The notes under the pieces were generated by a model. That model was not told where the DNA came from. It did no database searches and saw nothing but the letters and a program-made list of their open reading frames with translations. The position numbers were made by a program, and so were the translations under genes. Below are positions 6,097 through 51,076 of a DNA stretch of 64,000 nt, piece by piece. The DNA is from an uncultured Gemmatimonadota bacterium (GTDB lineage Bacteria; JAAXHH01), in assembly GCA_951812955.1 (NCBI GenBank), contig OX638340.1, forward strand, positions 2,208,001 through 2,272,000, read 5' to 3'. The first letter of the stretch is position 1; every line of letters starts with the position of its first letter.

Positions 6097-6098
6097 AT

Positions 6099-6822: not shown

Positions 6823-6850
6823 TCCGCCGTAATCCAAGGAGTGCTTTTCT

Positions 6851-8611: not shown

Positions 8612-9361
8612 GTGGATGATCTGAACGTAAAACTCGATCAGCTGGAACGGGATGGTTTCGTGTTGATCAAAGGCGCCCTGTCTCCGGAAGAAACCGAGGA
8701 AGTACGTTCGCGGATCTTTCACGCCAGGGAACAGGGGTGGGAAGAAGGCCTGAACGCGGTGGGCAACATGTGGTTCGACACCCTGCTGGACCGGGAACCC
8801 GGGATCTTCGGTCCGCTCGTGGGCCATCCGAGCGTGGCGCCGCTGCTCTACGCCATGATGGGCAAGCAATGCCAGCTCCGCAGTTTCCGTGCTCACATCA
8901 ATCCCGGCGCCTATACCCAGGAATGGCACATGGACTTCTACGGTTACTGGAACGAGAAGCGGGAAACGGAAAAACGAAGGCTGGCCGTGCAGCCCAGCAG
9001 CGTGAACACGACCTTCTACTTCCAGGACAACGTCGCGGGCCAGGGCCATCTGAGGTTCGTCAAGAACGGCCACCTATCCGAGCCGCCTCACCTGTATCCC
9101 CGGATCGAGCATGAAGCATTCGAAAAGTGGTGCTACGCGCAGGAACACGTCGTGCTGCACCCCATGGCGGGCGACGCCGTCGTCTTCCTCAGTCACATCC
9201 CCCACCAGGGCGCCAAGGAAGATGACGACATGGAACGGTGCAACGTGGTCTGCCATTTCCAGACCTGCCCGATGTACGAAGGCGTATGGTACGTCTCCAG
9301 TCCCCGTCCCTTCAAGGGATCCTTCCCCTTTCACAAGACGGTGCCTGCGGGGATGGACTAG
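8612..9361 (+). CDS. phytanoyl-CoA dioxygenase (PhyH) family Fe(II)/2OG oxygenase
   Basis: 249 aa. Start LERDGFVLIKGALSPEE and the HxD...H arrangement are typical of PhyH. GTG start is preceded by AAGGAGAG. Confidence 0.65.
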   Translation: MDDLNVKLDQLERDGFVLIKGALSPEETEEVRSRIFHAREQGWEEGLNAVGNMWFDTLLDREPGIFGPLVGHPSVAPLLYAMMGKQCQLRSFRAHINPGAYTQEWHMDFYGYWNEKRETEKRRLAVQPSSVNTTFYFQDNVAGQGHLRFVKNGHLSEPPHLYPRIEHEAFEKWCYAQEHVVLHPMAGDAVVFLSHIPHQGAKEDDDMERCNVVCHFQTCPMYEGVWYVSSPRPFKGSFPFHKTVPAGMD

Positions 9362-9550
9362 CCCTGAGGTACACCCGTTGCGAACGGGCGGTTGTTCACT
9401 GTATCCCGATGTTTCAAACCATCGCGACGAAATCCGTTGACACGAGAAAAATCGACCTTTAAAATACGGTCCTGCGTTGTTAAGTTAAATTAATGCATAG
9501 GGATAGCGTTCAATAGTCATCGGCGGTCCGGTTTCCGGGAGGAGGCCTTC

Positions 9551-9847
9551 ATGACCACCACCAAGAAGGAACTGGTGGAACAGATCAGCAAGCGCCTGGG
9601 GCTCAAGAAGGAACAGGTGTTCCCTGTTGTCGACCAGACGTTCGCGGCCATGCGGGATTCACTGATCCAGGGCGATCGCATCGAAATCAGGGGATTCGGT
9701 GTTTTCGAAGTCAAGGACACGAAGGCCCGCACTTCTGCGCGCAATCCCCGCACGAGTGATATCGTTTACGTCCCGGCCGGAAAAAAGACCCGTTTCAAAC
9801 CCGGAAAACTGTTGAAAGAAGCCCTTCGGGTCCCTCTCGATGACTGA
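9551..9847 (+). CDS. HU/IHF family DNA-binding protein
   Basis: 98 aa. MTTTKKELVEQISKRLGL...RIEIRGFGVFEVKDTKARTSARNPRTSDIVYVPAGKKTRFKPGK is the canonical IHF/HU fold signature. Strong RBS GGAGGAGG. Confidence 0.9.
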   Translation: MTTTKKELVEQISKRLGLKKEQVFPVVDQTFAAMRDSLIQGDRIEIRGFGVFEVKDTKARTSARNPRTSDIVYVPAGKKTRFKPGKLLKEALRVPLDD

Positions 9848-10730
9848 AACCAAGGCGGATTGCATACCTCCCGCCGTCCTCTCGAAACTCACCGCATTCG
9901 TCCGTACGCATCTGTTTCGATGGATGATGTGCCTGTGTCCTTTCCTGGCCGCCTTGCTGGACACGGCAGCACAGCAGGACACGGCCACCGTACAGGATTC
10001 GACCGCCTTGCAGGACACGACCGTCGAAACGGCCCTGCAGCAGGTCCCAGCGATATCGCTGGAAGAAGCCGTAACATTCTACGAATCCGGCCAGAACGAC
10101 CGGGCACGCGAGGCCTTCCTGCGTATTCTCGGTGACCGGCCTGAAGAGCCGATCGTCCTCTACCATATGGGACGCCTGGAGACGGACCAGGAGGCGGCCG
10201 AACAGTATTTCCTGAAGGTCCTGTTGCACGAACCGGAACACGCGCTGGCGGACGACGCGCTGCTGGAGGTCTCCCGCATCCAGTACGCCCTGGGCCGACA
10301 CGACGAGGCAGTGAACGCCTGCAACCGGCTCCTCGTGGCATATCCGGAATCGGACCTGGAGAACGAAACGCGCTTCCTGCTGGGACGAGCGCTTCTCGAC
10401 GGGCGAAGGCCGGAACTCTCGCGTCTGGTCTTCGAGCAACTGCTCGCTTCGGCGCCCGACTCGACGCTCGTTCGTTCGGCGCGGCTGGCCATTGCGGACA
10501 GCTACCAGGTGCAGGGGGATTTGATCGAAGCCGCCCGCCAGTACCTTAGGTTCGAGATCGATTTTCCGGGCGTGGAAGGGCTGGAGACGGTCCTGTGGCA
10601 GGCGGGGCAATGCCTTGAAAACGCGGGACGCACCGTCGAGGCCGGATACGTGTACCAGCGACTGATCAAGCGGTATCCCGACTCGGCGGAAGCGAAGCGC
10701 GCCCGCGTGGAAAGGCCTGTGCCGGAATAG
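9840..10730 (+). CDS. tetratricopeptide-repeat protein with N-terminal signal/anchor
   Basis: Overlaps the HU/IHF stop by 8 nt. Repeated helical TPR-like segments (AREAFLRIL, AEQYFLKVL, LIEAARQYL). Confidence 0.6.
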   Translation: MTETKADCIPPAVLSKLTAFVRTHLFRWMMCLCPFLAALLDTAAQQDTATVQDSTALQDTTVETALQQVPAISLEEAVTFYESGQNDRAREAFLRILGDRPEEPIVLYHMGRLETDQEAAEQYFLKVLLHEPEHALADDALLEVSRIQYALGRHDEAVNACNRLLVAYPESDLENETRFLLGRALLDGRRPELSRLVFEQLLASAPDSTLVRSARLAIADSYQVQGDLIEAARQYLRFEIDFPGVEGLETVLWQAGQCLENAGRTVEAGYVYQRLIKRYPDSAEAKRARVERPVPE

Positions 10731-10763
10731 CGGCGCGTCCGACGCGGTCCGAGCCGACTGGCG

Positions 10764-28507: not shown

Positions 28508-29152
28508 TCACCTACGTGATCGCGATGGTACTGAACAATGATCATCCAATATTTTAACAAGAGACATACAAACACTTCTCATCTGACTAATCGCACTACT
28601 TATCTCTGATCGAGTATATCTGCGTCCGATATTCTCCGGTGGTTCTCGACCATGGGCAATAGCATTTCTGTGTGCGACCACTTCGTCTATTCGATTTCTA
28701 TGTTTTCGTCGGCGTACAGGCATCCGCCGAATACCAAAAACCCCAAAAATAAATCGCAGATGCGAGTATCTATAATGTGTTCCGTCGGTAGGTGGTTTGA
28801 TATTACTGGACAGATCAGGCTTTTGATCTGAAAATGCACGTTCAAATACTTTAACTCGATTTAACCATTCCTTACTTCGCGACCCGTCCCGCAATGATTT
28901 CAATTCTGGATCCAAGTAAATAGCCATTAGTGTAGGCAACAGATCTTTCATCATGTGTTTGTGGTTTTTAATCGCTTCTACTGCCCCAATCACTGCGTTA
29001 TTCACAGTGTATTCGTAGACAGCGTAAGTCTGCACAAACAAAAGCCCCTTGGCAACGACTGCTTGGTGTTCTTCCAGCTTCCTTGTCGCCTTCCAAAATT
29101 GCTCAATTGATAAAAACCGAGTTTCAATTTCTGTCTTAAGTGCTGGGAACAT
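28508..29152 (-). CDS. HEPN-domain protein (MAE_28990/MAE_18760-like), predicted RNase partner of DUF262
   Basis: 214 aa. Rx4H HEPN motif in VVAHRNAIAHGREP. Overlaps the upstream DUF262 gene by 17 nt. Lies in the AT-rich islet. Confidence 0.55.
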   Translation of the reverse strand: MFPALKTEIETRFLSIEQFWKATRKLEEHQAVVAKGLLFVQTYAVYEYTVNNAVIGAVEAIKNHKHMMKDLLPTLMAIYLDPELKSLRDGSRSKEWLNRVKVFERAFSDQKPDLSSNIKPPTDGTHYRYSHLRFIFGVFGIRRMPVRRRKHRNRIDEVVAHRNAIAHGREPPENIGRRYTRSEISSAISQMRSVCMSLVKILDDHCSVPSRSRR

Positions 29153-30215
29153 ACACTCTTCCTAAGAATCGATCTCGGCAGAACTCTATACGACCCTTCA
29201 CAGCTCTCAAACTATTTGTCGCGCCTGTGGTGAATCCTCTGAGTTCGTCCGAGTTCATCCAAGTAGAAATGTCTGTTGTGTCCAGTTTAGCATGTTCTTT
29301 TAATGCTAGTGATGCTCCTACGGCTATTGCCTCATAGAGATTCAATGGCGTTAAGCCCTTCCGACCAGGACGCCTTATACCTTCTGGGAAAGTTTGGGCT
29401 AGTTTTTGAAAAACCGTTCGAAACTCTTTTTCTTTGGTAATGTAGTCAAAGTGATTGCTCGCATCCTTCATGTAATCCGTTAAAAACTCCTCAACACTGT
29501 GTTCAAAGTTATTGTATCGATCCAAATACGCAAAATAACGAAGCACACATTCTTCTAAAGTTCCATCATTCCTGTTTCCTTTTGAAAGTTTTACGACCTT
29601 TTGGAAGTCATCAGTTTTTGCCAACTCATCTAGTTTGTCAGCAAACTTTCCTTGGTACACGCAGTCCCGTATTTCTTGGTTCGTTAGCAAAACACCGCCG
29701 GTGTTCAAGCGCTCAAAAAGATCAAACCGTATTACTTTGTCACTCTTATCGTTCAGGGTAACAACTCTTAAAGGTCTAGTCTTCACATGTTGTTGAATTG
29801 TTGTAGGAAAGGTACCATATGTCAAATTGTTGAAATTACTTAGTTTCTTCAGCCCTTTTAATACTAGCTTCTCACCCAAGCCAAATTGATTACGCAGTTC
29901 TTCATCGCCAGCAAACTTGACTATTGCACTCAAACGTTGAACTCCATCAACAGCTTCCCACGTGAAATCGTCATTTGTTGCCATAAAAAGATTGGGAATC
30001 GGTATTCCAAGCATGAGCGATTCTACGAGTCGAGAACAGCGTTCATCATTCCAGCGAAATTGCCGTTGGTATGAAGGTGCAACTGATATCTGTCCTTCCT
30101 TTAGCATGCTCAATAGTTCTTGGAGTTGGATGTCGAAAGTATCGAAATCCACTGTTCGTCGTTGAGTTGCCAGTTGATCAGTAAGGTCTTGCGGTATTTC
30201 GATAGGAATTTGCAC
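29136..30215 (-). CDS. DUF262 (ParB-like nuclease/NTPase domain, GmrSD N-terminal-type) protein
   Basis: 359 aa. DUF262 signatures APSYQRQFRW and AVDGVQRL (DGxQR). There is no C-terminal DUF1524/HNH half as in full GmrSD. Confidence 0.65.
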   Translation of the reverse strand: MQIPIEIPQDLTDQLATQRRTVDFDTFDIQLQELLSMLKEGQISVAPSYQRQFRWNDERCSRLVESLMLGIPIPNLFMATNDDFTWEAVDGVQRLSAIVKFAGDEELRNQFGLGEKLVLKGLKKLSNFNNLTYGTFPTTIQQHVKTRPLRVVTLNDKSDKVIRFDLFERLNTGGVLLTNQEIRDCVYQGKFADKLDELAKTDDFQKVVKLSKGNRNDGTLEECVLRYFAYLDRYNNFEHSVEEFLTDYMKDASNHFDYITKEKEFRTVFQKLAQTFPEGIRRPGRKGLTPLNLYEAIAVGASLALKEHAKLDTTDISTWMNSDELRGFTTGATNSLRAVKGRIEFCRDRFLGRVYVPST

Positions 30216-35717: not shown

Positions 35718-36334
35718 ATGTAGTGCCCGCGTCCTTTCTCCGGCAGCACGTCGAAAATCAAGTGCACCCGTGGTTCGTTTGTCGGGTTTCTCGCTTCGTG
35801 CAGCGCCTTGTTGTCGAACACCCACAGCTCGCCTTCCCGCATCACTATGGTTTCACCTTCTGCGGTCATTGGACTCCCCTCCGGGCTCCTCAGCACAAGG
35901 TGGTATCGATCACGTATTCGGTAGTAAGCGCCGGCGTCGGTATGAGGTCGAACCCACCCCTGAGGTTGCAAGGATACCAGTGTAGCGCGTCCAAGTACAC
36001 CCCGATGAAGCGTGGCGATCTCTTTACAGAACGCCAGCGTTCGGGGGAATTTTCTAGCAGTAGCAGTAGTGCGACTGTCATGGACGTCGTTGGCGTTTTT
36101 CGCTCCTGGAGGCAGTGGTTTTTTAGCGGTACGCAGAAAGATATTTTGGGTGTCGCGTTGACAACGAACCTTGCGTTGCCGACTGGTATCGGCGAGCCAA
36201 AGATCTGGTACTGTGTCCAATTCCAGCATTAGCGGTTCAATATCGATGCCCGTCGCGATCCGGGTGAAACGCTTACCTGCCGGTGACACATCATTTGATT
36301 CTTTACCGGGAATCACATCGGTCTTGTGTATCAC
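35699..36334 (-). CDS. aspartyl/asparaginyl beta-hydroxylase family (AspH/LpxO/CinX-type) Fe(II)/2OG oxygenase, soluble
   Basis: 211 aa. Family core GWVRPHTDAGAYYRIRDRYHLVL...GETIVMREGELWVFDNKALHEARN...RVHLIFDV, matching HxxPHxD...RLRxHLxL...FDDSFEHEAxN of AspH/LpxO. No membrane anchor. Confidence 0.7.
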   Translation of the reverse strand: MIHKTDVIPGKESNDVSPAGKRFTRIATGIDIEPLMLELDTVPDLWLADTSRQRKVRCQRDTQNIFLRTAKKPLPPGAKNANDVHDSRTTATARKFPRTLAFCKEIATLHRGVLGRATLVSLQPQGWVRPHTDAGAYYRIRDRYHLVLRSPEGSPMTAEGETIVMREGELWVFDNKALHEARNPTNEPRVHLIFDVLPEKGRGHYIYAPTE

Positions 36335-36469
36335 AAACGACCACCCTTACCGCCATATGCCAATGGGATTGATCAGCACCATCTCAGTATTCAACACAAG
36401 TAGTTACGTATGCTGGAGCCAGCTCAACAGGCCAGAAAGTACACGTTCGGTTAATCGAACAGCCATGAA

Positions 36470-37483
36470 TCAGTCGTCATCGTCGTCATCTTTATCATCG
36501 TCGTCATCGTCATCGTCGTCATCGTCGTCATCATCATCGCCGTCGCCATCCCCGTCACCATCCCCGTCGCCATCGCCATCGCCATCGCCGTCACCATCGC
36601 CGTCGCCATCCCCGTCTCCATCACCATCACCGTCGCCATCTCCATCACCATCGCCGTCACCGTCGCCATCCCCATCGCCGTCCCCATCTCCATCGCCGTC
36701 GCCGTTACCTCCAGAGTTCCCACTGGGCGGTGGACTTAACTCTTCATCGCCGTCGCCATCCCCATCGCCGTCTCCATCACCACTGGGCGGTGGACTTAAC
36801 ACTTCGTCACCGTCGCCATCCCCGTCGCCATCCCCGTCTCCATCACCGTCGCCATCCCCGTCTCCATCACCGTCGCCATCGCCATCCCCATCGCCATCGC
36901 CATCACCGTCGCCATCGCCATCCCCATCGCCATCGCCGTCACCATCCCCATCACCATCACCGTCGCCATCACCGTCGCCATCCCCGTCCCCATCTCCGTC
37001 GCCATCCCCGGCCCCGTCCCCATCGCCATCGCCGTCACCATCGCCGTCGCCATCCCCGTCTCCATCACCGTCCCCATCACCGTCGCCATCCCCGTCCCCA
37101 TCACCATCACCGTCACCATCGCCGTCACCGTCACCATCGCCGTCCCCATCGCCACCATTTGAACTTGTGGTATTTGTTACCACACTTGCGTTGTCCTCGT
37201 TATTGCTACCTGCATCCCCGTTCCCATCCCCATTTCCGTTCCTATCTCCATTTCCGTCACCATCTCCATCTCCATCGCCATCTCCGTCCCCGTCGCCGTC
37301 CCCATCGCCGCTGCCACCCGGACTCTGAGCACTCCCCACCTGATTCGCACTCGTGGCGAATCCAGACCCTGATCCCATGGGGTTCAGATCGTTGTCCCCT
37401 CTGCAACCCAGGATCATGAGCAACGAAGCGACAGTCAGTTGCATTCTTCGCAACCATTGCATAATGGTTCGGCACAAGGCCAT
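36470..37483 (-). CDS. predicted lipoprotein composed almost entirely of (Gly-Asp)n dipeptide repeats, ending in poly-Asp
   Basis: 337 aa. N-terminus MALCRTIMQWLRRMQLTVASLLMILGC (signal plus lipobox-like ILGC). Then GDGDGD... for most of its length, with two EVLSPPPSG / EELSPPPSG spacers and a ~20-residue Asp tail. Wobble asymmetry supports this strand: the Asp codons are always GAY while the Gly codons use all four third bases. Confidence 0.6.
   Translation of the reverse strand: MALCRTIMQWLRRMQLTVASLLMILGCRGDNDLNPMGSGSGFATSANQVGSAQSPGGSGDGDGDGDGDGDGDGDGDGNGDRNGNGDGNGDAGSNNEDNASVVTNTTSSNGGDGDGDGDGDGDGDGDGDGDGDGDGDGDGDGDGDGDGDGDGDGDGDGAGDGDGDGDGDGDGDGDGDGDGDGDGDGDGDGDGDGDGDGDGDGDGDGDGDGDGDGDGDGDGDGDGDGDEVLSPPPSGDGDGDGDGDGDEELSPPPSGNSGGNGDGDGDGDGDGDGDGDGDGDGDGDGDGDGDGDGDGDGDGDGDGDGDGDGDGDGDGDDDDDDDDDDDDDDDKDDDDDD
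36480..37320. repeat. ~840-bp hexanucleotide-periodic microsatellite-like repeat (GGN GAY)n with all six frames open
   Basis: Plus strand reads (TCN CCR)n = SPSPSP. Minus strand reads GDGDGD. The ORF track shows overlapping ORFs in every frame across this interval. A 27-bp element CCACTGGGCGGTGGACTTAAC(T/A)CTTC occurs twice inside. Confidence 0.85.
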
Positions 37484-37817
37484 GGCACGCTACCTATTTG
37501 CCGGTTTGGAAATACAGTACAGGAGTGTTATTTGATTGTAATACGGAGCACACACAATCATGAGGAACCCTACCTTTGCCGTGACAGGCTATAGGGAACG
37601 TCACGGCAGACACAGATAGTAGGTAACGTTGTGTACCCTAAATAAAACCGGATTCCAGCTTGGATGTCAATGATTTAGACTTCAAGGTGATCACAAGACC
37701 TTTACATGACACAGTAATCCGTCCACTTTCGCCATTTCGATTCCTATCACAGCAACTAGGAATACGGCACCGCGGCGACAGTCCTGGCCTTGCATACACG
37801 GGTATATCAATCAGGTA

Positions 37818-38177
37818 CTAAGGCTTGTCGATCCAGACCGGATCCGGCGTGATGCTCGTCTCTGGCGGCGGCCCGGTATCGGTCCATTCTTCCTCGTTCT
37901 CGAGGAGGAATCCGGGTTCGACCGACATGTCGTGATCGCAGATGATCTGGCAGGACAACCGTACCTCGCCGACCAGCCCTTTCTCGGAAAGTACCGCGTG
38001 CTCGGCCTCGGTCATCGTGTCCGGCTCGCCCTCACTGATGGTCACCCGGCAGGTTGTGCACTTGGCGTTCCCACCGCACCGGTGGCCGATGTTCACCCCG
38101 GTGCCCTCGATAGCCAGTACCAGACGCTGCCCGGAATCGACTTCGTTCTCCACTCCGTTGACGGTAAGTTTCGGCAT
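37818..38177 (-). CDS. 2Fe-2S ferredoxin (plant/adrenodoxin-like fold)
   Basis: 119 aa. Cys ligands in GHRCGGNAKCTTCRV and a distal LSCQIIC. Confidence 0.75.
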   Translation of the reverse strand: MPKLTVNGVENEVDSGQRLVLAIEGTGVNIGHRCGGNAKCTTCRVTISEGEPDTMTEAEHAVLSEKGLVGEVRLSCQIICDHDMSVEPGFLLENEEEWTDTGPPPETSITPDPVWIDKP

Positions 38178-42380: not shown

Positions 42381-43136
42381 ATGACTCCCCACGAAAGATA
42401 CCTCTTCGACCTGCAGGGTTTTATCGAGGTCCCGGACGCGTTGGACGCCGGGCAGCTCGCAGAACTGAACGGCATACTGGACGAGAAGATCGACGGGGCC
42501 ATGGCACCCGGCGCCACCACCCACCGATTCGGCTTCACCCTGCTCGACTGGGGACCAACCTACCGGGAACTGATCGACAATCCGCGGATAGATCCTTATC
42601 TGGAACAACTGATCGGTCCGAAGTACCGGCTGGACCACGATTATGCCGATATCATCCGAAAAGGCGACGGTCCAATCGGCACGACCCTCCACGGAGGCGC
42701 CATCCCCTTCGACCCCCTCTACTCCTACACCTGCACCAACGAAGAGATCCGTTGCGGCCTGACTGTGGTCGCCTACTACCTGAAGGACGTAAATCCAGGC
42801 GACGGCGGATTCGGCTGCGTGCCCGGCAGCCATAAGAGCAACTTCCGGTTCCCGGACGAGTGGCGCAACCTCAAGACCGACCAGCCCTTCATCCGCGCCG
42901 TAACCGGCAAGGCCGGCACCGCCGTCATATTCACCGAGGCCCTGACCCACGGCACCATGCCCTGGCACGGTGACGAGCGCCGCACCCTCTTCTACAAGTA
43001 CTCGCCCAATTCGATATCCTGGTACGCGGAATACTATGACGCCGACCGGTACGAAGGTCTGACGGAACGGCAGCAGGAGATCCTTGAGGCACCGAACGCG
43101 CGGTATGGAGAACGGTCTAAGCGTGGGGTTGTGTAG
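42381..43136 (+). CDS. phytanoyl-CoA dioxygenase (PhyH) family Fe(II)/2OG oxygenase
   Basis: 251 aa. ERYLFDLQGFIEVPDAL start; GSHK and the distal His (ALTHGTMPWHGD). Confidence 0.7.
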   Translation: MTPHERYLFDLQGFIEVPDALDAGQLAELNGILDEKIDGAMAPGATTHRFGFTLLDWGPTYRELIDNPRIDPYLEQLIGPKYRLDHDYADIIRKGDGPIGTTLHGGAIPFDPLYSYTCTNEEIRCGLTVVAYYLKDVNPGDGGFGCVPGSHKSNFRFPDEWRNLKTDQPFIRAVTGKAGTAVIFTEALTHGTMPWHGDERRTLFYKYSPNSISWYAEYYDADRYEGLTERQQEILEAPNARYGERSKRGVV

Positions 43137-43505
43137 GTGGGCTTTACGGATAGACCAGTTGATATTACGACCACATTTATTTGCTCATTGATTTACTGTA
43201 TCTCGAGGTTACAAATGGACGTTAAGGAAGCCGTAAGTACGGCCATAAAACATATTGCAGATGTATACTCGGAAGAGGGAATCTCGCATATTGGATTAGA
43301 AGAGGTAGAATACGACGAGATTAACTCACAATGGAACGTGACCGTTGGATTTGCACGTAAGTGGGACTTCCCTACTCCGGTTCTTATCCCCGTATTACCT
43401 TCACCAAGACCAAACCAAAGAACCTACAAAATCGTAGTAATTCGTGATAGAGACAAGAAGGTCACCGCAATGAAGATAAGGGATTTAGCTACGTCGAATG
43501 AATAG
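43137..43505 (+). CDS. hypothetical small protein, candidate antitoxin of the downstream PIN toxin
   Basis: Overlaps the PIN gene by 8 nt. First gene of the AT-rich island. Start ambiguous (GTG 43137 or ATG ~43215). No recognisable antitoxin fold by eye. Confidence 0.35.
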   Translation: MGFTDRPVDITTTFICSLIYCISRLQMDVKEAVSTAIKHIADVYSEEGISHIGLEEVEYDEINSQWNVTVGFARKWDFPTPVLIPVLPSPRPNQRTYKIVVIRDRDKKVTAMKIRDLATSNE

Positions 43506-43968
43506 TGTGCTTATAGATACGAATCTACTTGTCCTTTTGGTTGTAGGATCTACCGATAGAGAGTTTATTAGTCGACATAAACGCACAAAATCGTTCATAC
43601 CCAGAGACTATGACGAACTGACACGTCTGTTGTCGGGATCTCGTGAGTTATGGGTTACTTCTCACTGTCTGGCAGAGACATCGAATCTTCTGAAGCAAAC
43701 CGATAAAACAAAAGCACAGATCTTGTTACATACTCTTGCGGCCTACTGCGATATTGCCCGCGAATCGCATATTCCCAAAGAGACGGTATTTGGATACGAG
43801 AACTACCGCAGACTTGGCGTCACCGACACCGGCTTCATATACTCATCCGAAACAGTCTCTCGATCTATAACAGTAGATTTCAACTTGTACATCGAACTGA
43901 GTAACCTTGGCAGAGAAGTGATAAACTTCCACCACATCCGTGCTTCGTATCTCCAGAATGTCGATTGA
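43498..43968 (+). CDS. PIN-domain protein (VapC-like toxin)
   Basis: 156 aa. N-terminal LIDTNLLVLLVVG with the first acidic residue, plus later conserved acidic positions typical of PIN. Confidence 0.55.
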   Translation: MNSVLIDTNLLVLLVVGSTDREFISRHKRTKSFIPRDYDELTRLLSGSRELWVTSHCLAETSNLLKQTDKTKAQILLHTLAAYCDIARESHIPKETVFGYENYRRLGVTDTGFIYSSETVSRSITVDFNLYIELSNLGREVINFHHIRASYLQNVD

Positions 43969-44089
43969 CACGACGATCACACAGTTTTGCACATTCCAGT
44001 GCTTAGTTTTTGGTCAAGACCAACCTGTAGTTAAAACCAACCAATGGCCCTGAAGAAATCCCAAAATTTGGTAAACACTGCCAGGAGAG

Positions 44090-45034
44090 ATGCCACCTAT
44101 GCTTGACGAATTGGTTGGATGTATCGATGAACTTAAAGATCGTATTTCCAAATACCGAAACTCACTAAATGAGAACGAAACTCGTACTCGAATGCAGTTA
44201 ATAGATCCGCTGCTTCGTGTGCTGGGCTGGGACGTCTCCGATCCACGGTACGTTATCCCAGAATTCAAGGTGTCCGATGGTTGGGCTGACTATGCCTTAT
44301 TGCGGGATGATGGTAAGCCTGCTGCTATGGTGGAAGCTAAAAAACTGGACGAACCGTTAAAGCCCGCACACCGTGCTCAGATGTTGAAATACGCAATTGA
44401 GTTGGGTATCCCATACACTGGTTTGACAGATGGAAATCACTGGGAGTTGTACAATGTTTTCCAACCGGTACCTATGGAGGACAAACAGATCTTGGATGTT
44501 ACTTTATTGGATTCCCACTCCCACGAAAGTGCACTAAAGTTACTGCTGCTCTGGAATCCAAATCTAGACGCCGGCAGCGCGGTGAAAGCAAATGAACCTG
44601 TTCTCGTCGACACTCAGAATGGCGGTTCGATTCCTCCAATAATCGTTCCGCCACCATCGAACTGGAAGGCACTTTCAGATTACGAACCACCAGCAGGAAC
44701 ACCCGCACCTAAGGCTATTAGGCTTTGGGATGACTCAGAAAGAGAAGTGCATCATTGGTATGAAATTCTCACCATAGTAGCCGAAAAGCTCTACAACGAA
44801 AATGTCCTTACATTGGAACATATACCGATTCAATGGGCTAAAAAGACCTATAGTATTCACTCTCAACCAGTACATCCGACCGGCAACAAGTTTGAAAATC
44901 ATAAAGAAATCGGTAACTCGGGATTGTTCGTAAACGTAAATTTAAATACCGGTCAAGTACGAAATAACACCCGGAATCTACTGAAGAAATACAACATTGG
45001 TACAGAGAAGGTTTACCTCAAGGTAGCCGATTAG
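44090..45034 (+). CDS. HsdR_N-like PD-(D/E)xK nuclease-domain protein with uncharacterised C-terminal domain
   Basis: 314 aa. N-terminal NENETRTRMQLIDPLLRVLGW ... DYALLRDDGKPAAMVEAKKL is the type-I-restriction R-subunit N-terminal nuclease signature (D...EAK). The C-terminal ~160 aa match nothing I recognise. Confidence 0.55.
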   Translation: MPPMLDELVGCIDELKDRISKYRNSLNENETRTRMQLIDPLLRVLGWDVSDPRYVIPEFKVSDGWADYALLRDDGKPAAMVEAKKLDEPLKPAHRAQMLKYAIELGIPYTGLTDGNHWELYNVFQPVPMEDKQILDVTLLDSHSHESALKLLLLWNPNLDAGSAVKANEPVLVDTQNGGSIPPIIVPPPSNWKALSDYEPPAGTPAPKAIRLWDDSEREVHHWYEILTIVAEKLYNENVLTLEHIPIQWAKKTYSIHSQPVHPTGNKFENHKEIGNSGLFVNVNLNTGQVRNNTRNLLKKYNIGTEKVYLKVAD

Positions 45035-45444
45035 GTAGTTTCGTTGACCTACCATGTTGAGGAGTGATATTTCTTGATCTCCACAGACAAGGTTAAGGGT
45101 AAACCACAGCATACCTCCTCACTATCAGGCACGGTTCCTCAGTACGTTGAAGCGATATCAGCAACTCGCTAGCTAGCAGCTACCTGCCCCGTCGCATGGA
45201 ATACTGGGTACAAACCGTCTTTCACTTTAGTGGCGATTTGTTCACGGCTCCGTTCGTCAAATACAATTGAGCCCACTAATTCCACCTGTTTACCTCGACA
45301 AACAAGAGTACAGATCAATCACTTCGTATGACAAAACTCATTCAACTTCTATTCGAAATTGGAATCGGTGACCACCACTCAACCTCTGAATCGTGTGAGA
45401 CTGATGAAGATTCGCTGGTACATGGAAAGGATAATGGAGTGTAA

Positions 45445-47622
45445 TTGATGAATTCAACGTCTGAAGAAACCACCACCCGTCCCTGTTGGTTTGTGGGCGC
45501 CAGTTATTCTGGTACGGGCGATCAAACTGAGCGATTTCTCACGGAAGGTATCTGGGAGAACGGCTTCGACAACGATCATCCGGCCGTCGCGATGACCAAA
45601 ACCATTCAGCCCGGAGACCCAATCGCGATCAAGTCCGCCTACGTTCGCAAACACGACCTACCTTTTGACAGTCGCAACCAGTTCGTATCCGTAATGGCGA
45701 TCAAGGCCATCGGGACGGTTTTAGAGAACATCGGTGATGGCCATACCGTTAAGGTTAAATGGAATAAGGAGGTAACTCCGCGAGAATGGTATTTCTTTAC
45801 TAACAGAGGTACAGTTTGGAAAGTATCGCCTGGTAGTGACTGGTATTCCGACGCCCTGATCGGATTCGCGTTCGAGAACAAGCCGCAGGATATCGATCGT
45901 TTCTTAAAAGTGCCGTATTGGAGGGAGAGGTATCGAGGAGACACGCTCAATGATCAACGGTTTGCGTGGACGAGGTTCTACGAGGCCTTTGCGGATAAGC
46001 TGCTCACATATAGGAACAAGCGCTTAGACTTAATAAATGGTATACAAGAAATAGCTGCCAGAGAGTATGCCATGTTGGTTCTGAGGGATCAGTTTCGGGA
46101 CGGTACGATCGGTCCACTCAAAGACATATGCCCATTTACTACCATCGGATTGTTCAATAAGGGAATAACGAATAGCAATCGAAGATCAATTGCATCAGAA
46201 CTCGCTGAATTGCTGGGAGTGTCAGAGTCGGTTCCGGATTCATTCGATGGAATACCTGTTCTCAACAATCAGAATTCCTGGTTTTTTTCGTATGAAAAAA
46301 ACCGACGACCGGAAGATATTGAAATCCTTTGGAATGTTTACTCCCGTGCAATTGCCTTCGCTGATTCAGATGATTCCGATGCGCGATCTGCTTTCGTCTC
46401 TGCTTACGACGACGCATCCGAGGTTTCTCACGTAGGTTGGAAACTTACATTTGGGCTGTATTGGATACGGCCTTGGGATTTCCCCGTCCTCGACACGAAT
46501 ACCCGGCGTTACCTGGACAAGAAACTCAATATTGAGATCGGACTAAATGGACCGAAAAGGGGATACTGTAGTGCGAACGACTACCTGACGGTCCATGACA
46601 CACTTGAAAAGAGGTTTCTGGAGGACACATATCCGGTTCGTTCTTTTCCAGAACTAGCACGCGAAGCCTGGTTGTATAAGCCCGGTGACCCGGATCCCCC
46701 GCCAGATAGCGGTCTGGATCCCCCGCCACCACCTGTCCCTTATTCACTCGATGATATCGTGAAAGACGGCTGTTTCATTGCCAGAGATAAACTCGAGTCG
46801 ATACTCAATCGACTCCGTACCAAGAAAAACCTCATTCTACAAGGCCCTCCAGGAACCGGGAAGACTTGGCTCGCCAGGAAGTTGGCCTACGCTTTGATCT
46901 GTGAGCGAGACGAAAGCAAGGTTCGTTCGGTACAGTTCCATCCCAATCTCTCTTACGAAGATTTCGTACGTGGTTGGCGGCCGGCGGGAGATGGTAAACT
47001 TACGCTCGTAGATGGCCCCTTCATCGCCATAAGGGACGAGGCCGAAAAAGATCCTACTACTCGATACGTCTTGGTCATCGAAGAGATCAACCGGGGCAAT
47101 CCCGCACAGATTTTCGGCGAGATGCTGACATTGTTGGAGACCGACAAGCGAACTCCAGACGAAGCCTTGGAATTGGTTTATTCAAAGACTCCGGATGAGC
47201 GATTCTTTGTTCCTAACAATCTGTTTGTCATCGGGACGATGAACATTGCTGATCGTTCACTGGCACTTGTAGACCTGGCATTACGCCGTAGATTTGCATT
47301 TATCGATCTGGAACCTACCCTTGGCAAGACTTGGCGAGACTGGGTCCATTCTAAAAACGGGATAGATAACGAGACTCTCACCGAAATTGAGCATCGTATA
47401 GATGATCTGAACCGGACGATCTCCAATGATTCCGGTCTTGGCTCGCAATTTCGCTTGGGGCACAGTTATGTGACGCCGCCGTTTGAACAGCCGATTAAAG
47501 ATGGGAGAAAGTGGTACAGGGAAGTCGTTGAAACGGAAATTGGACCACTACTCGACGAATACTGGTTCGAAGACCTCGCGAAATCTAGAAACGCAAAAAA
47601 GAAACTTTTGGATGGTTTTTAG
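45445..47622 (+). CDS. mcrB: McrB-family GTPase (AAA+), with ~440-aa uncharacterised N-terminal region
   Basis: 725 aa. Walker A LILQGPPGTGKTW. McrB signature VLVIEEINRGNPAQIFGEMLTLLE. FVIGTMNIADRS. Confidence 0.85.
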   Translation: MMNSTSEETTTRPCWFVGASYSGTGDQTERFLTEGIWENGFDNDHPAVAMTKTIQPGDPIAIKSAYVRKHDLPFDSRNQFVSVMAIKAIGTVLENIGDGHTVKVKWNKEVTPREWYFFTNRGTVWKVSPGSDWYSDALIGFAFENKPQDIDRFLKVPYWRERYRGDTLNDQRFAWTRFYEAFADKLLTYRNKRLDLINGIQEIAAREYAMLVLRDQFRDGTIGPLKDICPFTTIGLFNKGITNSNRRSIASELAELLGVSESVPDSFDGIPVLNNQNSWFFSYEKNRRPEDIEILWNVYSRAIAFADSDDSDARSAFVSAYDDASEVSHVGWKLTFGLYWIRPWDFPVLDTNTRRYLDKKLNIEIGLNGPKRGYCSANDYLTVHDTLEKRFLEDTYPVRSFPELAREAWLYKPGDPDPPPDSGLDPPPPPVPYSLDDIVKDGCFIARDKLESILNRLRTKKNLILQGPPGTGKTWLARKLAYALICERDESKVRSVQFHPNLSYEDFVRGWRPAGDGKLTLVDGPFIAIRDEAEKDPTTRYVLVIEEINRGNPAQIFGEMLTLLETDKRTPDEALELVYSKTPDERFFVPNNLFVIGTMNIADRSLALVDLALRRRFAFIDLEPTLGKTWRDWVHSKNGIDNETLTEIEHRIDDLNRTISNDSGLGSQFRLGHSYVTPPFEQPIKDGRKWYREVVETEIGPLLDEYWFEDLAKSRNAKKKLLDGF

Positions 47623-48743
47623 TGGTGAATGGCCCAGTAGTTAGTACGGCTGACGAGACGATCGAACAGGCCGGGTATATCGGTCGTATCCCTTTACGAA
47701 ATATCTGGCTGCTCATGCTTTACGCCTCTGACCTTTTCAGGCAACTTGATGCGTCTGAATACCGCTCCTTCGAAGATAATCCTGATGACCTGCCCGATCT
47801 GGTTGCCGAGATCCTATCACATGAAGTCGAACGTCGACTAAAGCGAAATCTGAGTTACGGCTACCAATACCGTAACGAAGTGCTCGGACGGGTTCGCGGA
47901 CGTATCGACCTTTTACAAACCGAAGCTCATCAACTACTGCAACGCGGCATGGTCGCCTGTCGATTCGACGAACTGACAATCGACACACCGAGGAACAGGT
48001 ACGTTCGATCCGCCCTCGAGATGATATCCAAATATGTTCGTCGAAAAGACCTGGCTCACCAGTGCAGGTCCCTCGTTGGAAGCCTTAGGCGACAGGGAGT
48101 CGTTGGAGAACGACCTGGGCGTGAGGTGACGTCAGTTGAGCGATACGGTAGACATGACGCTGTTGACCGCAAGATGGTGGATGCGGCTCGTCTTGCCTTC
48201 GAAATGGCCATTCCGACCGAGCAGACCGGTTCCAGGCACCTTCCACTACCGGACCGTGATATAAACTGGATTCGCAGACTCTATGAGAAAGGCGTTGCAG
48301 GATTCTATGATGTGGTACTTTCCAGAAGGGGATGGAATGTGTATCCGGGAACGATTCTCAGATGGCCCACGACAGTCAGAAGTCCGCGAATAGACGGGAT
48401 ACTACCCTCCATGCGGACCGATATTGTGTTGGATCATGTTGACGAAGGCCGACGGATCGTTATAGACACGAAATTCAACTCGGTTTTGTCGAGAGGTTGG
48501 TATCGAAATGAAGGGATACGAAGCGGATACATGTACCAGATCTATGCTTACCTTAGGTCGCAGGAAGAGAGTGGTGATCCGCTTGATTGTAATGCAGAGG
48601 GAATGTTTCTCCATCCGTCGGTTGGTGAGATGTTCAACGAATGGGTAGATATTCAGGGTCATCGGATCCACTTCAATACCGTTGATCTCGCAACCGATAC
48701 ACAGACCATCAGATCGCAGTTGTTGGATGCGGTGAAACCTTAA
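47622..48743 (+). CDS. mcrC: McrC-family PD-(D/E)xK nuclease subunit
   Basis: 373 aa. GTG start overlaps the mcrB stop by 1 nt. C-terminal nuclease region DIVLDHVDEGRRIVIDTKFN. Confidence 0.75.
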   Translation: MVNGPVVSTADETIEQAGYIGRIPLRNIWLLMLYASDLFRQLDASEYRSFEDNPDDLPDLVAEILSHEVERRLKRNLSYGYQYRNEVLGRVRGRIDLLQTEAHQLLQRGMVACRFDELTIDTPRNRYVRSALEMISKYVRRKDLAHQCRSLVGSLRRQGVVGERPGREVTSVERYGRHDAVDRKMVDAARLAFEMAIPTEQTGSRHLPLPDRDINWIRRLYEKGVAGFYDVVLSRRGWNVYPGTILRWPTTVRSPRIDGILPSMRTDIVLDHVDEGRRIVIDTKFNSVLSRGWYRNEGIRSGYMYQIYAYLRSQEESGDPLDCNAEGMFLHPSVGEMFNEWVDIQGHRIHFNTVDLATDTQTIRSQLLDAVKP

Positions 48744-48834
48744 ACTGACTTTGCTCTCGACATAGTCGTTCCACCAGCCCATTTCCCGCATCCGTTTGGT
48801 GTGTTCGGCAGCTTCGGTAATCTCAAGATTTGAC

Positions 48835-49761
48835 TCACCCCGCCTTCCTGAAGACCTCGAAACGACGGTCCAGCCGGTCCTGGTCCGGATGGTCACGGGT
48901 GCGTGAAGGCAGGTGCAGTCCCGATCCGTCCAGTTGCTTGAGGGCCTGGAGCATGGGACCGTCATCCTTGTCCAGCAGGCGGTCGGATACGTGCAGCCGG
49001 TAGTCGGGATCAATGCCGATCAGGTGGGCGTCAAAGGCCGCATGATGAATCTTGGACAGGGCCAAGCCGTTGGGTACGACGGGTTGTCCCAATGCCTCGT
49101 CGCCATCGGCAATGATGTGGGCGGCATCCAGTAACTGCGTTTCCGGTAGGCCGGTAATGGCACAGCGGCCGCGATAGGCGTGAAGGACAGCCTCGCGGAA
49201 CGTGGCTTGGTGGAGTCGTTCCTTGACCATGCGCAGGGCATACCGCCGCTCTACCGCGTTAATCGGAGCTTCCATCTCGGCCTGGTTGGGGTTCCCAAAG
49301 GCAAGCGTGGACTTGAGCGCGAATCCATCCCAATTGGAGATGAAGGTGGGAATGATCGCCTGATACCGGCTGGGAGACACACCGAGAAAGTAGATCACGG
49401 GAATCTGATTCTCCCAGGCAACCTTTAACCACTGGTTGTCTGCTGCTGCCGGGTCCTGTCCCATGAAGGCGTAGTCCACGGAATCGTTGCCCTCGAAAAT
49501 CTGGCTGTGGACCTGCTTTTGGTCGTCGTACCAGACTCGGCCGCCCGGTCTGGGGTACACGGTCCTGATCGAGAGAAGGTACCGCATCCGGCGCGGCTTG
49601 AATATGCCCCGCTGCGGATTGACAAGGGGGATCCTTTCGCCTTCGAATACGAACCCCGGCGCCAGTTCGTCCCTCGTAAGGTGGCCATGGGTTTCACTCA
49701 GCCGCCGCACGTGATCGAACGCGGCCATCCGCATCCTCGGATCTCGGTCGTCGACGTTCAT
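48835..49761 (-). CDS. HNH endonuclease with N-terminal putative DNA-reader domain
   Basis: 308 aa. C-terminal HNH_2-type motif LLDAAHIIADGDEALGQPVVPNGLALSKIHHAAFD. The N-terminal ~200 aa are uncharacterised. Confidence 0.6.
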   Translation of the reverse strand: MNVDDRDPRMRMAAFDHVRRLSETHGHLTRDELAPGFVFEGERIPLVNPQRGIFKPRRMRYLLSIRTVYPRPGGRVWYDDQKQVHSQIFEGNDSVDYAFMGQDPAAADNQWLKVAWENQIPVIYFLGVSPSRYQAIIPTFISNWDGFALKSTLAFGNPNQAEMEAPINAVERRYALRMVKERLHQATFREAVLHAYRGRCAITGLPETQLLDAAHIIADGDEALGQPVVPNGLALSKIHHAAFDAHLIGIDPDYRLHVSDRLLDKDDGPMLQALKQLDGSGLHLPSRTRDHPDQDRLDRRFEVFRKAG

Positions 49762-49770
49762 CTCAGTCCT

Positions 49771-50787
49771 TTACCCCCGGTAAATCCTCTCATTGTGCCA
49801 GGATAGTACTTCGGTGGACGGCTGGTCCACCGCATTCCTGGGAACGACAATCTGTTTCCCGTGCAAAGAGTAGTAATCGCGCCCGTTCTCGAATTCCTCC
49901 CGGACCTGTCCGCTGACCTCGAAGTGCAATTCAGGGGTCACCGTTACGTATCCGGAATCGAACAGCCCGTGGATGTCGCGCCTTAGCAGCAGTCCGTTCC
50001 TGGCTTCGTGGATGCCCCCTTCGCTGTAGGGACGGATGTGCGCGGCATCAAGGGCCGGCAGCGTCCGTTCGCGGGTAACTGCGCAACGGCGGTCGTAAAG
50101 GTCGGTTACCAGGGCCCTGAAAGCACCTTGACCGAGACGCGGTTTGACCAGTTGCGGTTTGCCGTAAAGGGTTTGCCCGGCCAGGAGGCCTGAGGGTTCG
50201 GCCACGATGCCGGCAGGATTTGCAGATACACTGGTTGGCTGTCGGAATTCCAAACGGCCGTTGACTGCGTCCCACAATGCCCGTCCGTCTGAGTCACCGG
50301 TACTAAATGTCTTTAGTGACACGATGTTCGGCGACCATGTCGACGGCACATCGACAAACTCGGATGCCTCGAAGAAGAAGGGTTGGGTAAGGATCCGGCA
50401 GCCAATCTTGTAATCGCTCGGCTCACGTGGGTCAACATTACGGTAACGTGAGATACGATTTCGCATTTCCTGCAATGTCTCGGCACCGTTGGCTTCCCCG
50501 AATGCTTCCCATGCAAGGGAACAAGGCATCACATTGGCATAGGCAAAAACGCCGCCGCCAACGATTACGTTGTACGGCGCGTGTAGCTTGAAGAGGAACA
50601 GTTCACCGGGCTGAAGTGCCTTGAAGTTCGTGCCAGAAGGCGCCCAGAAGTTGACCTCCTCCAGGTGCGGCTTCTGCCGGAGAGTCTTGAACCAGTCCCC
50701 GTCGGTCACGGCAACGACCAGCTTGATGTCCATAGCGCGAATTCCGGTAAACTTTGGTGCTATTGGGATACAGGCAGATCCGATCAA
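49771..50787 (-). CDS. HNH endonuclease with N-terminal PUA-like (EVE/ASCH-type) domain
   Basis: 338 aa (start possibly the internal Met at 50733). N-terminus WFKTLRQKPHLEEVNFWAPSGTNFKALQPGELFLFKLHAPYNVIVGGGVF resembles the EVE/PUA-like pattern. C-terminal HNH ALDAAHIRPYSEGGIHEARNGLLLRRDIHGLFD. Paralogous to the neighbouring gene. Confidence 0.6.
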   Translation of the reverse strand: MIGSACIPIAPKFTGIRAMDIKLVVAVTDGDWFKTLRQKPHLEEVNFWAPSGTNFKALQPGELFLFKLHAPYNVIVGGGVFAYANVMPCSLAWEAFGEANGAETLQEMRNRISRYRNVDPREPSDYKIGCRILTQPFFFEASEFVDVPSTWSPNIVSLKTFSTGDSDGRALWDAVNGRLEFRQPTSVSANPAGIVAEPSGLLAGQTLYGKPQLVKPRLGQGAFRALVTDLYDRRCAVTRERTLPALDAAHIRPYSEGGIHEARNGLLLRRDIHGLFDSGYVTVTPELHFEVSGQVREEFENGRDYYSLHGKQIVVPRNAVDQPSTEVLSWHNERIYRG

Positions 50788-51076
50788 CGGACAACCGCAA
50801 CCGTGCGTCTCGCTGATCGAGCCTTATCATCTAAAATAAAAGACGGCAACCATGGCAGGTCAAGTGCCGCCTGTGCGACCCGGTTTTTGACGTTTGGAAC
50901 ACAGAACGAGTGCTTCCAGATTGCCTTGACCAAATGTACCTGTTAGTTTACTGAACGTTGGTACACTTGATCTCATAAGTTATCAGGAGATTACGAGCGA
51001 GTAGTGAAAGGAACGATTCATATCTTATGTTGTGTAATTTAAATCATATATCGGAAATAGTACATAGGGGAGTTGT

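What the first reader, a model, noticed from the sequence alone, without database searches (positions are those of the whole stretch)
45445..48743. McrBC type IV system whose McrB carries a long (~440 aa) unassigned N-terminal region
The AAA+ GTPase core and the McrC nuclease are canonical (motifs quoted in the features). The DNA-reader portion of McrB precedes the Walker A at about residue 470 and is far longer than the ~160-aa E. coli McrB N-domain. Its first ~130 aa (WFVGASY...IQPGDPIAIKSAYVR...VKVKWNKEVTPREWYFFTNRGTVWKV) look like a beta-barrel reader, and a second uncharacterised domain follows. The modification specificity is therefore unknown.
Basis: partly seen in the sequence, partly recalled or inferred. 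Interest (0 to 1): 0.5.

Follow-up and report, generated by a model that had tools for sequence, protein, structure and literature searches.

The report
McrBC restriction system, two-domain uncharacterised reader
This is an intact two-gene McrBC-type restriction system that cuts modified foreign DNA; its motor protein carries, in place of the known E. coli methylcytosine reader, an EVE/YTH-like barrel plus a helical domain of unknown function (DUF8425) that is widespread but has never been studied.

Summary
ORF 45445-47622 (+, 725 aa) is a McrB. Residues 426-722 match the E. coli McrB GTPase (E 5e-74), and Walker A, Walker B, the MNIADRS loop and RRRF are intact. ORF 47622-48743 passes the NCBIfam McrC equivalog cut-off.

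The 430-aa N-terminus has no hit in the local Pfam copy, in PDB sequences or in PADLOC. A confident AlphaFold model (pLDDT 91.5) resolves it into two domains:
- **D2 (aa ~171-412):** an all-helical domain, which the newest Pfam calls DUF8425. It has no convincing structural relative. A resemblance to HhH-GPD glycosylases was tested and stayed at noise level.

The module is common: about 2,800 protein clusters across many phyla. D1 and D2 shuffle independently, and McrC follows directly in 36 of 37 related loci.

This is a known kind of system with an uncharacterised, widespread reader module, and its specificity is still unknown. Interest is moderate.

The parts
45445..47622 (+). mcrB-like gene (725 aa from TTG 45445; the likely true start is ATG 45448, giving 724 aa)
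   Evidence: ORF list. GGAG at 45436-45439 lies 8 nt before ATG 45448. The identical 724-aa protein P0001 is in public data. The C-terminal half matches E. coli McrB.
45478..45879 (+). D1 (aa ~12-145): PUA-like EVE/YTH-type beta-barrel, the presumed modified-base reader. Conserved residues: W15, W37, G57-D58, K63, F74, G90, W106, W115.
45880..45954 (+). Short helices (aa ~146-170) connecting D1 to D2
   Evidence: Secondary structure of the model; pLDDT dips to about 69 around aa 161-170.
45955..46680 (+). D2 (aa ~171-412): all-helical domain of about 10 helices plus a small hairpin, equal to Pfam DUF8425 (PF28527); function unknown. Conserved motifs: D-I-C-P-F-T (227-232), F-N-[RK] (237-239), G-I-P (269-271), W296, W-I-R-P-W (340-344), L-D (349-350).
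   Evidence: Model pLDDT about 90-98. PF28527 is listed for the identical protein P0001, named DUF8425, and present in P0175, a protein with D2 and the AAA+ domain only. Conservation over 122 copies. Only weak fold hits. No sequence or profile hits.
46681..46737 (+). Proline-rich flexible linker (aa 413-431, PDPPPDSGLDPPPPP)
   Evidence: pLDDT below 50 at aa 419-430; sequence.
46738..47619 (+). N-linker plus McrB-type AAA+ GTPase and lid (aa 432-725). Walker A GPPGTGKT 46843-46866; Walker B VIEEINR 47074-47094; McrB consensus loop MNIADRS (NxxD) 47239-47259; RRRF 47284-47295.
   Evidence: PDB 6ut6 E 5e-74, aligned 426-722 to 161-456. AAA_5 E 4e-27. NCBIfam PRK11331 matches aa 432-722. Motif positions. 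PF28529 McrB_lid is listed in the precomputed Pfam hits for the identical protein.
47622..48743 (+). mcrC gene (373 aa). The start overlaps the mcrB stop. PD-(D/E)xK-type motif TDIVLD ... VIDTKF at 48417-48476.
   Evidence: NCBIfam McrC equivalog, 395.5 bits against a cut-off of 338. Pfam McrBC E 2e-22. Overlap and motif. McrC lies directly downstream in 36 of 37 related loci.

Best explanation
The locus is a functional two-gene McrBC (Type IV, modification-dependent, GTP-driven) restriction system of the E. coli K-12 (NxxD) branch. The DUF3578/ADAM methylcytosine reader of E. coli McrB is replaced by a composite N-terminal sensor.

**Shown:**
- The McrB motor and the McrC nuclease are intact and translationally coupled.
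- D1 has the PUA-like EVE/YTH fold that other restriction enzymes use to hold a flipped-out modified base.
- D2 (DUF8425) is a separate all-helical domain.
- D1 and D2 are independent evolutionary modules that almost always sit in front of a McrB GTPase with McrC next door.

**Inferred:**
- D1 recognises a modified base (5mC, 5hmC or 6mA class; which one is unknown) in incoming DNA.
- D2 occurs alone or in tandem in front of many McrB motors, so it is itself a DNA-binding or specificity domain rather than a spacer.
- The proline-rich linker tethers the sensor to the GTPase hexamer.
- As in EcoKMcrBC, GTP-dependent hexamers load at recognition sites and translocate, and McrC cleaves when complexes stall or collide.

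The low G+C content of the island and the broad, patchy distribution indicate horizontal acquisition as part of a defence island.
For: - **Motor and nuclease:**. E 5e-74 to solved E. coli McrB; Walker A and B, the MNIADRS loop and RRRF are present; McrC is above the equivalog cut-off; stop and start overlap.
- **Structure:** the N-terminal model has pLDDT 91.5 and pTM 0.87.
- **Modularity:** among 150 representatives the architectures are D1-D2-AAA (56), D2-AAA (28), D2-D1-AAA (13), D2-D2-AAA (4) and D1-D1-AAA (2). D1-D2 is also fused to KAP NTPases, and D1 to an AAA_21 ATPase.
- **Abundance:** 2,813 clusters at 90% identity and 2,792 representatives at 50% identity score E<=1e-3.
- **McrC linkage:** McrC is directly downstream in 36 of 37 loci from at least 8 phyla.
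- **Defence context:** the gene sits after a type I RM on the Proteus R997 element, next to BREX brxL in Deinococcus, and in MAD7-containing islands. In the window it lies in a 45-53% GC island inside a 60-64% GC genome, beside two HNH endonucleases.
- **Literature:** variable N-terminal readers on canonical McrB, with EVE the commonest (PMC7641849, PMC10602043, bioRxiv 10.64898/2026.08.31.748284).
Against: - No biochemical datum exists for any member. No paper mentions DUF8425.
- D1 is EVE/YTH-like by fold only. No EVE, YTH or ASCH sequence model hits it. Its pocket residues were not mapped in 3D, so binding of a modified base is an inference.
- D2 has no significant structural or profile relative, so its role as a DNA reader rests only on domain-architecture logic.
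- PUA-like domains can also bind RNA or free modified nucleotides (bioRxiv 10.64898/2026.01.15.699771).
- Expression and activity in this host were not tested.
Confidence: 0.75

Rival explanations
1. D2 (DUF8425) is a highly diverged HhH-GPD-type DNA glycosylase fold. It would act as a base-flipping reader or even as an active glycosylase, so the system would couple base excision or flipping by D2 with McrC cleavage.
For: - The segment helix 311-324 / loop HVGW / helix 333-341 / RPWDFPVL / D350 / helix 351-359 has the same spacing as the HhH-GPD motif (read from the sequence).
- hhalign's best local alignment with MutY places D350 on the catalytic Asp138.
- D350 is Asp or Glu in 96% of 122 D2 copies.
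Against: - All scores are at noise level. hhalign probability is 0.2-0.5% with E 0.13-0.32 against Nth, AlkA, MutY and a 122-sequence MutY/Nth profile.
- No Pfam HhH-GPD hit appears in 25 members, and there is no PDB profile hit.
- The hairpin glycines that define HhH motifs are poorly conserved (G329 44%, G331 32%).
- D350 is replaced by Asn or other residues in some members.
Confidence: 0.12
2. The D1-D2 module does not read modified DNA bases. It senses another infection signal, such as RNA, free modified nucleotides or a phage protein, and McrBC acts as a triggered effector.
For: - PUA-like, EVE and YTH domains bind RNA in many contexts, and a PUA module binds free m6-dAMP in another defence system (bioRxiv 10.64898/2026.01.15.699771, found).
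- A McrBC subclass (CoCoNuTs) is predicted to target RNA (PMC11090510).
- The D1-D2 module is also attached to KAP and ABC-type NTPases, as a general sensor would be.
Against: - This McrB has the NxxD loop and lacks the coiled-coil and CSD features of CoCoNuTs.
- Its motor and McrC are close to the DNA-cleaving E. coli enzyme.
- The closest structural relatives of D1 include DNA-modification readers: VcaM4I, THYN1 bound to 5mC DNA, and the McrB N-domains.
- Relatives co-occur with type I RM, as in the DNA-targeting E. coli branch (PMC11090510).
Confidence: 0.1
3. The locus is a decayed or domesticated McrB with a non-defence role, like PcdA of S. aureus.
For: A precedent exists: PcdA has two EVE domains and a McrB-type AAA+ domain and was co-opted for cell division (PMC10602043).
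Against: - All catalytic motifs are intact, the McrB lid is present, and McrC is present and coupled. PcdA has lost these features (PMC10602043).
- The gene pair lies in a horizontally acquired low-GC defence island.
Confidence: 0.03

Closest known systems
EcoKMcrBC (E. coli K-12 McrB + McrC)
   Same: Two-gene operon with mcrB upstream. The AAA+ GTPase including the N-linker aligns over aa 426-722 to 161-456 at E 5e-74. It has the NxxD consensus loop and arginine fingers. McrC passes the same NCBIfam equivalog model.
   Different: The N-terminal reader is different. E. coli has a DUF3578/ADAM (SRA-like) 5mC reader of about 160 aa. Here there is a 430-aa module of an EVE/YTH-like barrel plus DUF8425 with no sequence similarity to it. 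The full-length NCBIfam McrB equivalog score fails for this reason (257.8 against 637).
McrB homologues with PUA-superfamily readers: T. gammatolerans McrB (YTH, m6A DNA; PDB 6p0g) and S. marinus McrB (PUA-like; PDB 6n0s); 'EVE-McrB' fusions of Bell et al. 2020 (PMC7641849)
   Same: A PUA-like beta-barrel reader is fused N-terminally to a McrB GTPase that has a McrC partner.
VcaM4I / TspA15I-type EVE-HNH modification-dependent endonucleases (PMC7897488, PMC6765204)
   Different: They are single-chain HNH nucleases without a motor. Sequence identity is 11%.
PcdA of S. aureus (two EVE domains + McrB-type AAA+; PMC10602043)
   Same: Several N-terminal reader-type domains sit in front of a McrB-family AAA+ domain.
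   Different: PcdA has degenerate NTPase motifs, no lid and no McrC, and it works in cell division. The window protein keeps all of these features.
LlaI / BsuMI three-gene McrBC-like systems (bioRxiv 10.64898/2026.08.31.748284)
   Same: The DNA-binding module is separable from the motor. A split version of the present family exists in Deinococcus.
   Different: LlaI.R1 is an alpha/beta ERCC4-like two-domain protein, not an all-helical domain like D2. The R2 motors lack the N-linker, which is present here.

Membership tests
McrBC Type IV restriction system (canonical, NxxD / E. coli branch) | McrB-type AAA+ GTPase with Walker A, Walker B, the MNxxDRS (NxxD) consensus loop and arginine fingers | tested here: met
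   GPPGTGKT 467-474, VIEEINR 544-550, MNIADRS 599-605, RRRF 614-617. E 5e-74 to solved E. coli McrB. AAA_5 E 4e-27.
McrBC Type IV restriction system (canonical, NxxD / E. coli branch) | N-linker segment preceding the AAA+ core, which determines GTP specificity | tested here: met
   The alignment with E. coli McrB starts at residue 161 of the E. coli protein (query 426), upstream of the AAA+ core. GTP specificity itself was not tested.
McrBC Type IV restriction system (canonical, NxxD / E. coli branch) | Adjacent McrC with an N-terminal McrB-activating domain and a PD-(D/E)xK nuclease | tested here: met
   NCBIfam PRK09736 scores 395.5 bits, above the cut-off of 338, over aa 20-372. Pfam McrBC E 2e-22. 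The TDIVLD...VIDTKF motif is present. McrC is directly downstream in 36 of 37 related loci.
McrBC Type IV restriction system (canonical, NxxD / E. coli branch) | N-terminal DNA-binding or modification-reader domain on McrB | tested here: inconclusive
   A reader-type fold (PUA-like) is present. DNA or modified-base binding cannot be shown computationally.
McrBC Type IV restriction system (canonical, NxxD / E. coli branch) | GTP-dependent cleavage of modified DNA | not testable with these tools
   Needs biochemistry or in vivo restriction assays.
EcoKMcrB orthologue (NCBIfam PRK11331 equivalog) | Full-length score above the curated cut-off, which requires the DUF3578/ADAM reader | tested here: not met
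   257.8 bits against a cut-off of 637. Only aa 432-722 match profile positions 167-456.
EVE / YTH / ASCH (PUA-like) modified-base reader domains (for D1) | PUA-like beta-barrel fold | tested here: met
EVE / YTH / ASCH (PUA-like) modified-base reader domains (for D1) | Sequence membership in the Pfam EVE, YTH or ASCH models, or similarity to solved members | tested here: not met
   No such hit for the window D1 at E<=10, nor for any of 26 D1 homologues at E<=1. A profile search against PDB found only noise.
EVE / YTH / ASCH (PUA-like) modified-base reader domains (for D1) | Conserved aromatic or basic pocket that holds the flipped modified base | tested here: inconclusive
   W15, W37, W106, W115, K63 and F74 are invariant or nearly so. 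A 'GDxIAIKS' strand recalls the EVE 'GDxxxxYxS' motif (recalled from memory).
Pfam DUF8425 (PF28527) (for D2) | Hit to the family model | tested here: met
   The precomputed Pfam hits list PF28527 for the identical protein P0001. It is named DUF8425 and is present in the D2-only McrB P0175. The model is absent from the local Pfam copy.
HhH-GPD DNA glycosylases (considered for D2) | Significant fold or profile similarity | tested here: not met
HhH-GPD DNA glycosylases (considered for D2) | Conserved hairpin Gly-x-Gly, and a catalytic Asp about 20 residues downstream | tested here: inconclusive
   The Asp candidate D350 is 89% D and 7% E, but the hairpin glycines are only 44% and 32% conserved in 122 copies.
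CoCoNuT (RNA-targeting McrBC subclass) | NxD GTPase motif, coiled-coil and CSD domains | tested here: not met
   The loop is NIAD (NxxD). The model and the Pfam scans show no coiled-coil or CSD.

The most novel reading that the evidence does not exclude
DUF8425 (D2), rather than the EVE-like barrel, is the main specificity determinant. It would be a previously unrecognised class of DNA-modification reader, possibly a remote, glycosylase-derived base-flipping fold, that equips thousands of McrBC systems and also some KAP-NTPase systems. D1 would be an optional second reader that broadens or sharpens the target range.
Probability: 0.3. Interest if true: 0.6.

Novelty: new variant of a known kind. 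Interest (0 to 1): 0.4.

Why it matters
McrBC is among the commonest Type IV restriction systems; one census counted about 34,000 (PMC11090510). Its targets are known only for the few N-terminal readers that have been solved: E. coli DUF3578, the T. gammatolerans YTH domain, and the LlaJI B3-like domain (the last recalled from the literature, not checked here).

The D1-D2 / DUF8425 module found here heads a large, phylum-spanning set of McrB motors and also occurs on mobile elements such as the Proteus R997 element. Nothing is known about what it recognises.

Defining its ligand would show which phage or plasmid DNA modifications a large fraction of environmental bacteria restrict. It could also yield a new modification-specific DNA-binding reagent. 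It would not change the general picture of how McrBC works.

Tried and rejected
1. **Sequence assignment of the N-terminus.** The local Pfam copy (E<=10), NCBIfam, PADLOC, PHROGs, and PDB searches by phmmer and by profile all gave nothing meaningful.
2. **First full-length AlphaFold model.** With a shallow alignment of 40 sequences it gave pLDDT 67.9 and a poor D1. It was replaced by an N-terminal model built on a diverse 66-sequence alignment.
3. **D2 as an HhH-GPD glycosylase.** The idea was followed up with hhalign against E. coli Nth, AlkA and MutY and against a 122-sequence MutY/Nth profile, and by counting motif conservation. It was not significant and is kept only as a low-probability rival.
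4. **Source of diverse HhH-GPD sequences.** A scan of viral contigs found none. The homology search returned only enterobacterial MutY and Nth.
5. **D2 as a LlaI.R1-like module.** Rejected, because LlaI.R1 is alpha/beta and ERCC4-like.
6. **D1 related to the N-termini of the two neighbouring HNH enzymes.** hhalign found no relation.
7. **Fold libraries.** The viral BFVD library gave no significant match.
8. **Scan with the D2 alignment.** The single protein was used instead.
9. **Source organism.** An exact look-up of P0001's contig found nothing on record, so the organism of the window was not identified.
10. **Conserved neighbours.** The upstream 314-aa gene and the small gene pair at 43137-43968 are not found near McrB in any of the related loci. 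The two HNH genes recur in only one related locus, L010.
11. **Promoters and terminators.** The consensus scan found no more sites than the shuffled controls.
Full report
**Observation**

The window carries two co-oriented, overlapping ORFs at the stated coordinates: 45445-47622 (725 aa) and 47622-48743 (373 aa). The TTG listed as the first codon is followed at once by ATG 45448, which lies 8 nt after a GGAG. A 724-aa protein identical over the queried N-terminal 430 aa exists in public data (P0001). The second ORF's GTG start overlaps the TAG stop of the first by one base. This is the usual sign of translational coupling.

**Motor and nuclease**

Residues 426-722 of the first protein align end to end with residues 161-456 of solved E. 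coli McrB at E 5e-74 (6ut6, 7vsr, 6hz4). Pfam AAA_5 scores E 4e-27, and NCBIfam PRK11331 matches aa 432-722. Walker A (GPPGTGKT, 467-474), Walker B (VIEEINR, 544-550), the McrB consensus loop (MNIADRS, 599-605, the NxxD type) and RRRF (614-617) are all present.

The second protein scores 395.5 bits on the NCBIfam McrC equivalog, above the cut-off of 338. It carries a TDIVLD...VIDTKF nuclease motif. The McrBC identification is therefore secure.

The full-length McrB equivalog score fails (257.8 against 637) because the N-terminus is different.

**The N-terminal 430 residues**

These residues have no hit in the local Pfam-A copy even at E<=10. They also have no hit in NCBIfam, PADLOC or PHROGs, or in PDB sequences by phmmer or by profile.

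They are nevertheless far from orphan:
- 2,813 clusters at 90% identity score E<=1e-3. Most are about 735 aa long and about 63% identical, and they come from Pseudomonadota, Chlorobium, Geobacter, Chloroflexota, Zixibacteria and others.
- 2,792 representatives at 50% identity also score E<=1e-3.

The precomputed annotation of these proteins shows two Pfam families newer than the local copy: PF28527, named DUF8425, and PF28529, named McrB_lid.

**Structure**

A first full-length AlphaFold2 model built on a shallow alignment was poor in the first domain (pLDDT 67.9). A second model of residues 1-430, built on 66 diverse sequences, is confident (pLDDT 91.5, pTM 0.87). It shows two domains joined by short helices, followed by a disordered proline-rich linker (aa 413-431).

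Sequence identity in these matches is 4-18%. Foldseek's top hits are the same EVE and YTH proteins. No EVE, YTH or ASCH sequence model detects D1 or any of 25 homologues. D1 is therefore a separate family within the PUA-like fold. Its invariant residues are mostly tryptophans (W15, W37, W106, W115), plus K63 and F74. That pattern would suit an aromatic base pocket, but I could not map the residues in 3D.

**The glycosylase lead**

I followed this lead for two reasons. The segment 311-359 has the spacing of an HhH-GPD motif. hhalign's best local alignment with MutY also puts D350 on the catalytic Asp138. However, every comparison has a probability below 1%. The hairpin glycines are conserved in only 32-44% of 122 D2 copies. 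D350 is Asp in 89% and Glu in 7%. I keep this as a rival at about 0.12 probability. LlaI.R1, the separate DNA-binding subunit of three-gene McrBC-like systems, is alpha/beta and ERCC4-like and so is unrelated to D2.

**Architecture and context**

Among the 150 best representatives the two domains shuffle independently:

| Architecture | Count |
|---|---|
| D1-D2-AAA | 56 |
| D2-AAA | 28 |
| D2-D1-AAA | 13 |
| D2-D2-AAA | 4 |
| D1-D1-AAA | 2 |

D1-D2 is also fused to KAP NTPases, and D1 to an AAA_21 ATPase. [quoted passage not shown] I therefore infer that D2 is itself a DNA-binding or specificity domain, with D1 as an added reader.

In 41 genomic loci from Acidobacteriota, Planctomycetota, Actinomycetota (15 Sinomonas records), Cyanobacteria, Gammaproteobacteria, Myxococcota, Dehalococcoidia and Spirochaetia, McrC follows directly in 36 of the 37 loci that have room for it.

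Relatives also occur in other defence settings:
- On the mobilizable Proteus record pR997, right after a type I RM. This fits the association reported for the E. coli branch (PMC11090510).
- Next to BREX brxL in a split form in Deinococcus.
- In MAD7-containing islands.

Only one of 5,426 complete E. coli genomes has the variant, and there it is interrupted by an IS5 element.

In the window the operon lies in a 45-53% GC island (about 43-51 kb) inside a 60-64% GC genome. Two HNH_2 endonucleases sit downstream, and they are also present in the closest genomic relative found, L010.

**Mechanism**

*Shown:* the motor and nuclease are intact and coupled, D1 has a PUA-like reader fold, and D2 is a separate conserved helical domain.

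*Inferred from the E. coli and T. gammatolerans work* (PMC7680126, PMC3424535, bioRxiv 10.64898/2026.08.31.748284): the N-terminal module binds modified DNA, GTP drives hexamer assembly and translocation, and McrC cleaves. Which modification is read is unknown.

**Comparison and novelty**

This is a McrBC system of the E. coli (NxxD) branch and not a CoCoNuT. EVE-type readers on McrB are a known theme (PMC7641849, PMC10602043), and the protein family is already in databases as 'McrB family protein' or 'AAA family ATPase'.

Two things are not known: the D1 subfamily's ligand, and anything at all about DUF8425. No paper mentions DUF8425. I rate the locus as a new variant of a known kind, with moderate interest (0.4).

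Noticed in passing
window 48835-49761 (-) and 49771-50787 (-): Two adjacent HNH_2 endonuclease genes lie directly downstream of mcrC on the other strand. Both match the NCBIfam 'phosphorothioated DNA-binding restriction endonuclease' model weakly (E about 1e-15, below its cut-off) and the PADLOC HNH model. The HNH part of the 338-aa protein matches VcaM4I (E 4.5e-7). Their N-terminal domains are unassigned and unrelated to D1 by hhalign. The same pair follows McrBC in related locus L010. They are probably further modification-dependent nucleases of the same defence island.
   Followed up: partly
window 44090-45034 (+): A 314-aa protein upstream of mcrB has a weak HSDR_N (type I R-subunit N-terminal, PD-(D/E)xK-like) match (E 1.6e-5) and matches PHROG 4225 'endonuclease' (E 1.5e-14). 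It is not conserved next to McrB in the 41 related loci.
   Followed up: partly
window 43137-43505 (+) and 43498-43968 (+): A pair of small overlapping genes (122 aa and 156 aa) sits at the low-GC island edge. Neither has a family assignment. The layout looks like a toxin-antitoxin pair, but this was not tested.
   Followed up: no
window ~43000-51000: Low-GC island (45-53% against 60-64% in the flanks) that holds the McrBC operon and its neighbours. No tRNA gene was found anywhere in the window.
   Followed up: partly
window 28508-29152 (-) and 29136-30215 (-): A second low-GC islet (41-51% GC) carries a GmrSD_N (DUF262) protein (E 2e-24) overlapping a HEPN protein (MAE_28990 / RiboL-PSP type, E about 1e-9). 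It is probably another defence gene pair.
   Followed up: partly
window 36001-38000: Strong negative GC skew (-0.24 to -0.29) over 2 kb, far beyond the rest of the window. The overlapping ORFs include a 337-aa protein with only a weak TrAA12-like match. Unexplained.
   Followed up: no
L001-L006 (relatives of P0035), genes around 8001-12266: In several Pseudomonadota and metagenome contigs the DUF8425-McrB/McrC pair is embedded after a MAD7-family gene, an 1,821-aa unannotated protein and, in L002-L006, a HARE-HTH-Mrr_cat nuclease. It is followed by an overlapping ADP-ribosylglycohydrolase gene. This may be a larger composite defence system.
   Followed up: no
L051 (Deinococcus sp. NW-56 plasmid), 2927-6981: A split version of the family: a 'DUF4357 domain-containing protein' that carries the D2-like region, then a separate AAA family ATPase and McrC, next to BREX brxL and after a WYL regulator. 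It recalls the three-gene LlaI/BsuMI layout.
   Followed up: no
proteins P0160, P0176, P0251: The D1-D2 module is also fused to KAP-family P-loop NTPases (P0160, P0176), and D1 alone to an AAA_21/AAA_15 (ABC-type) ATPase (P0251). The sensor module is therefore shared among different NTPase-based systems.
   Followed up: partly
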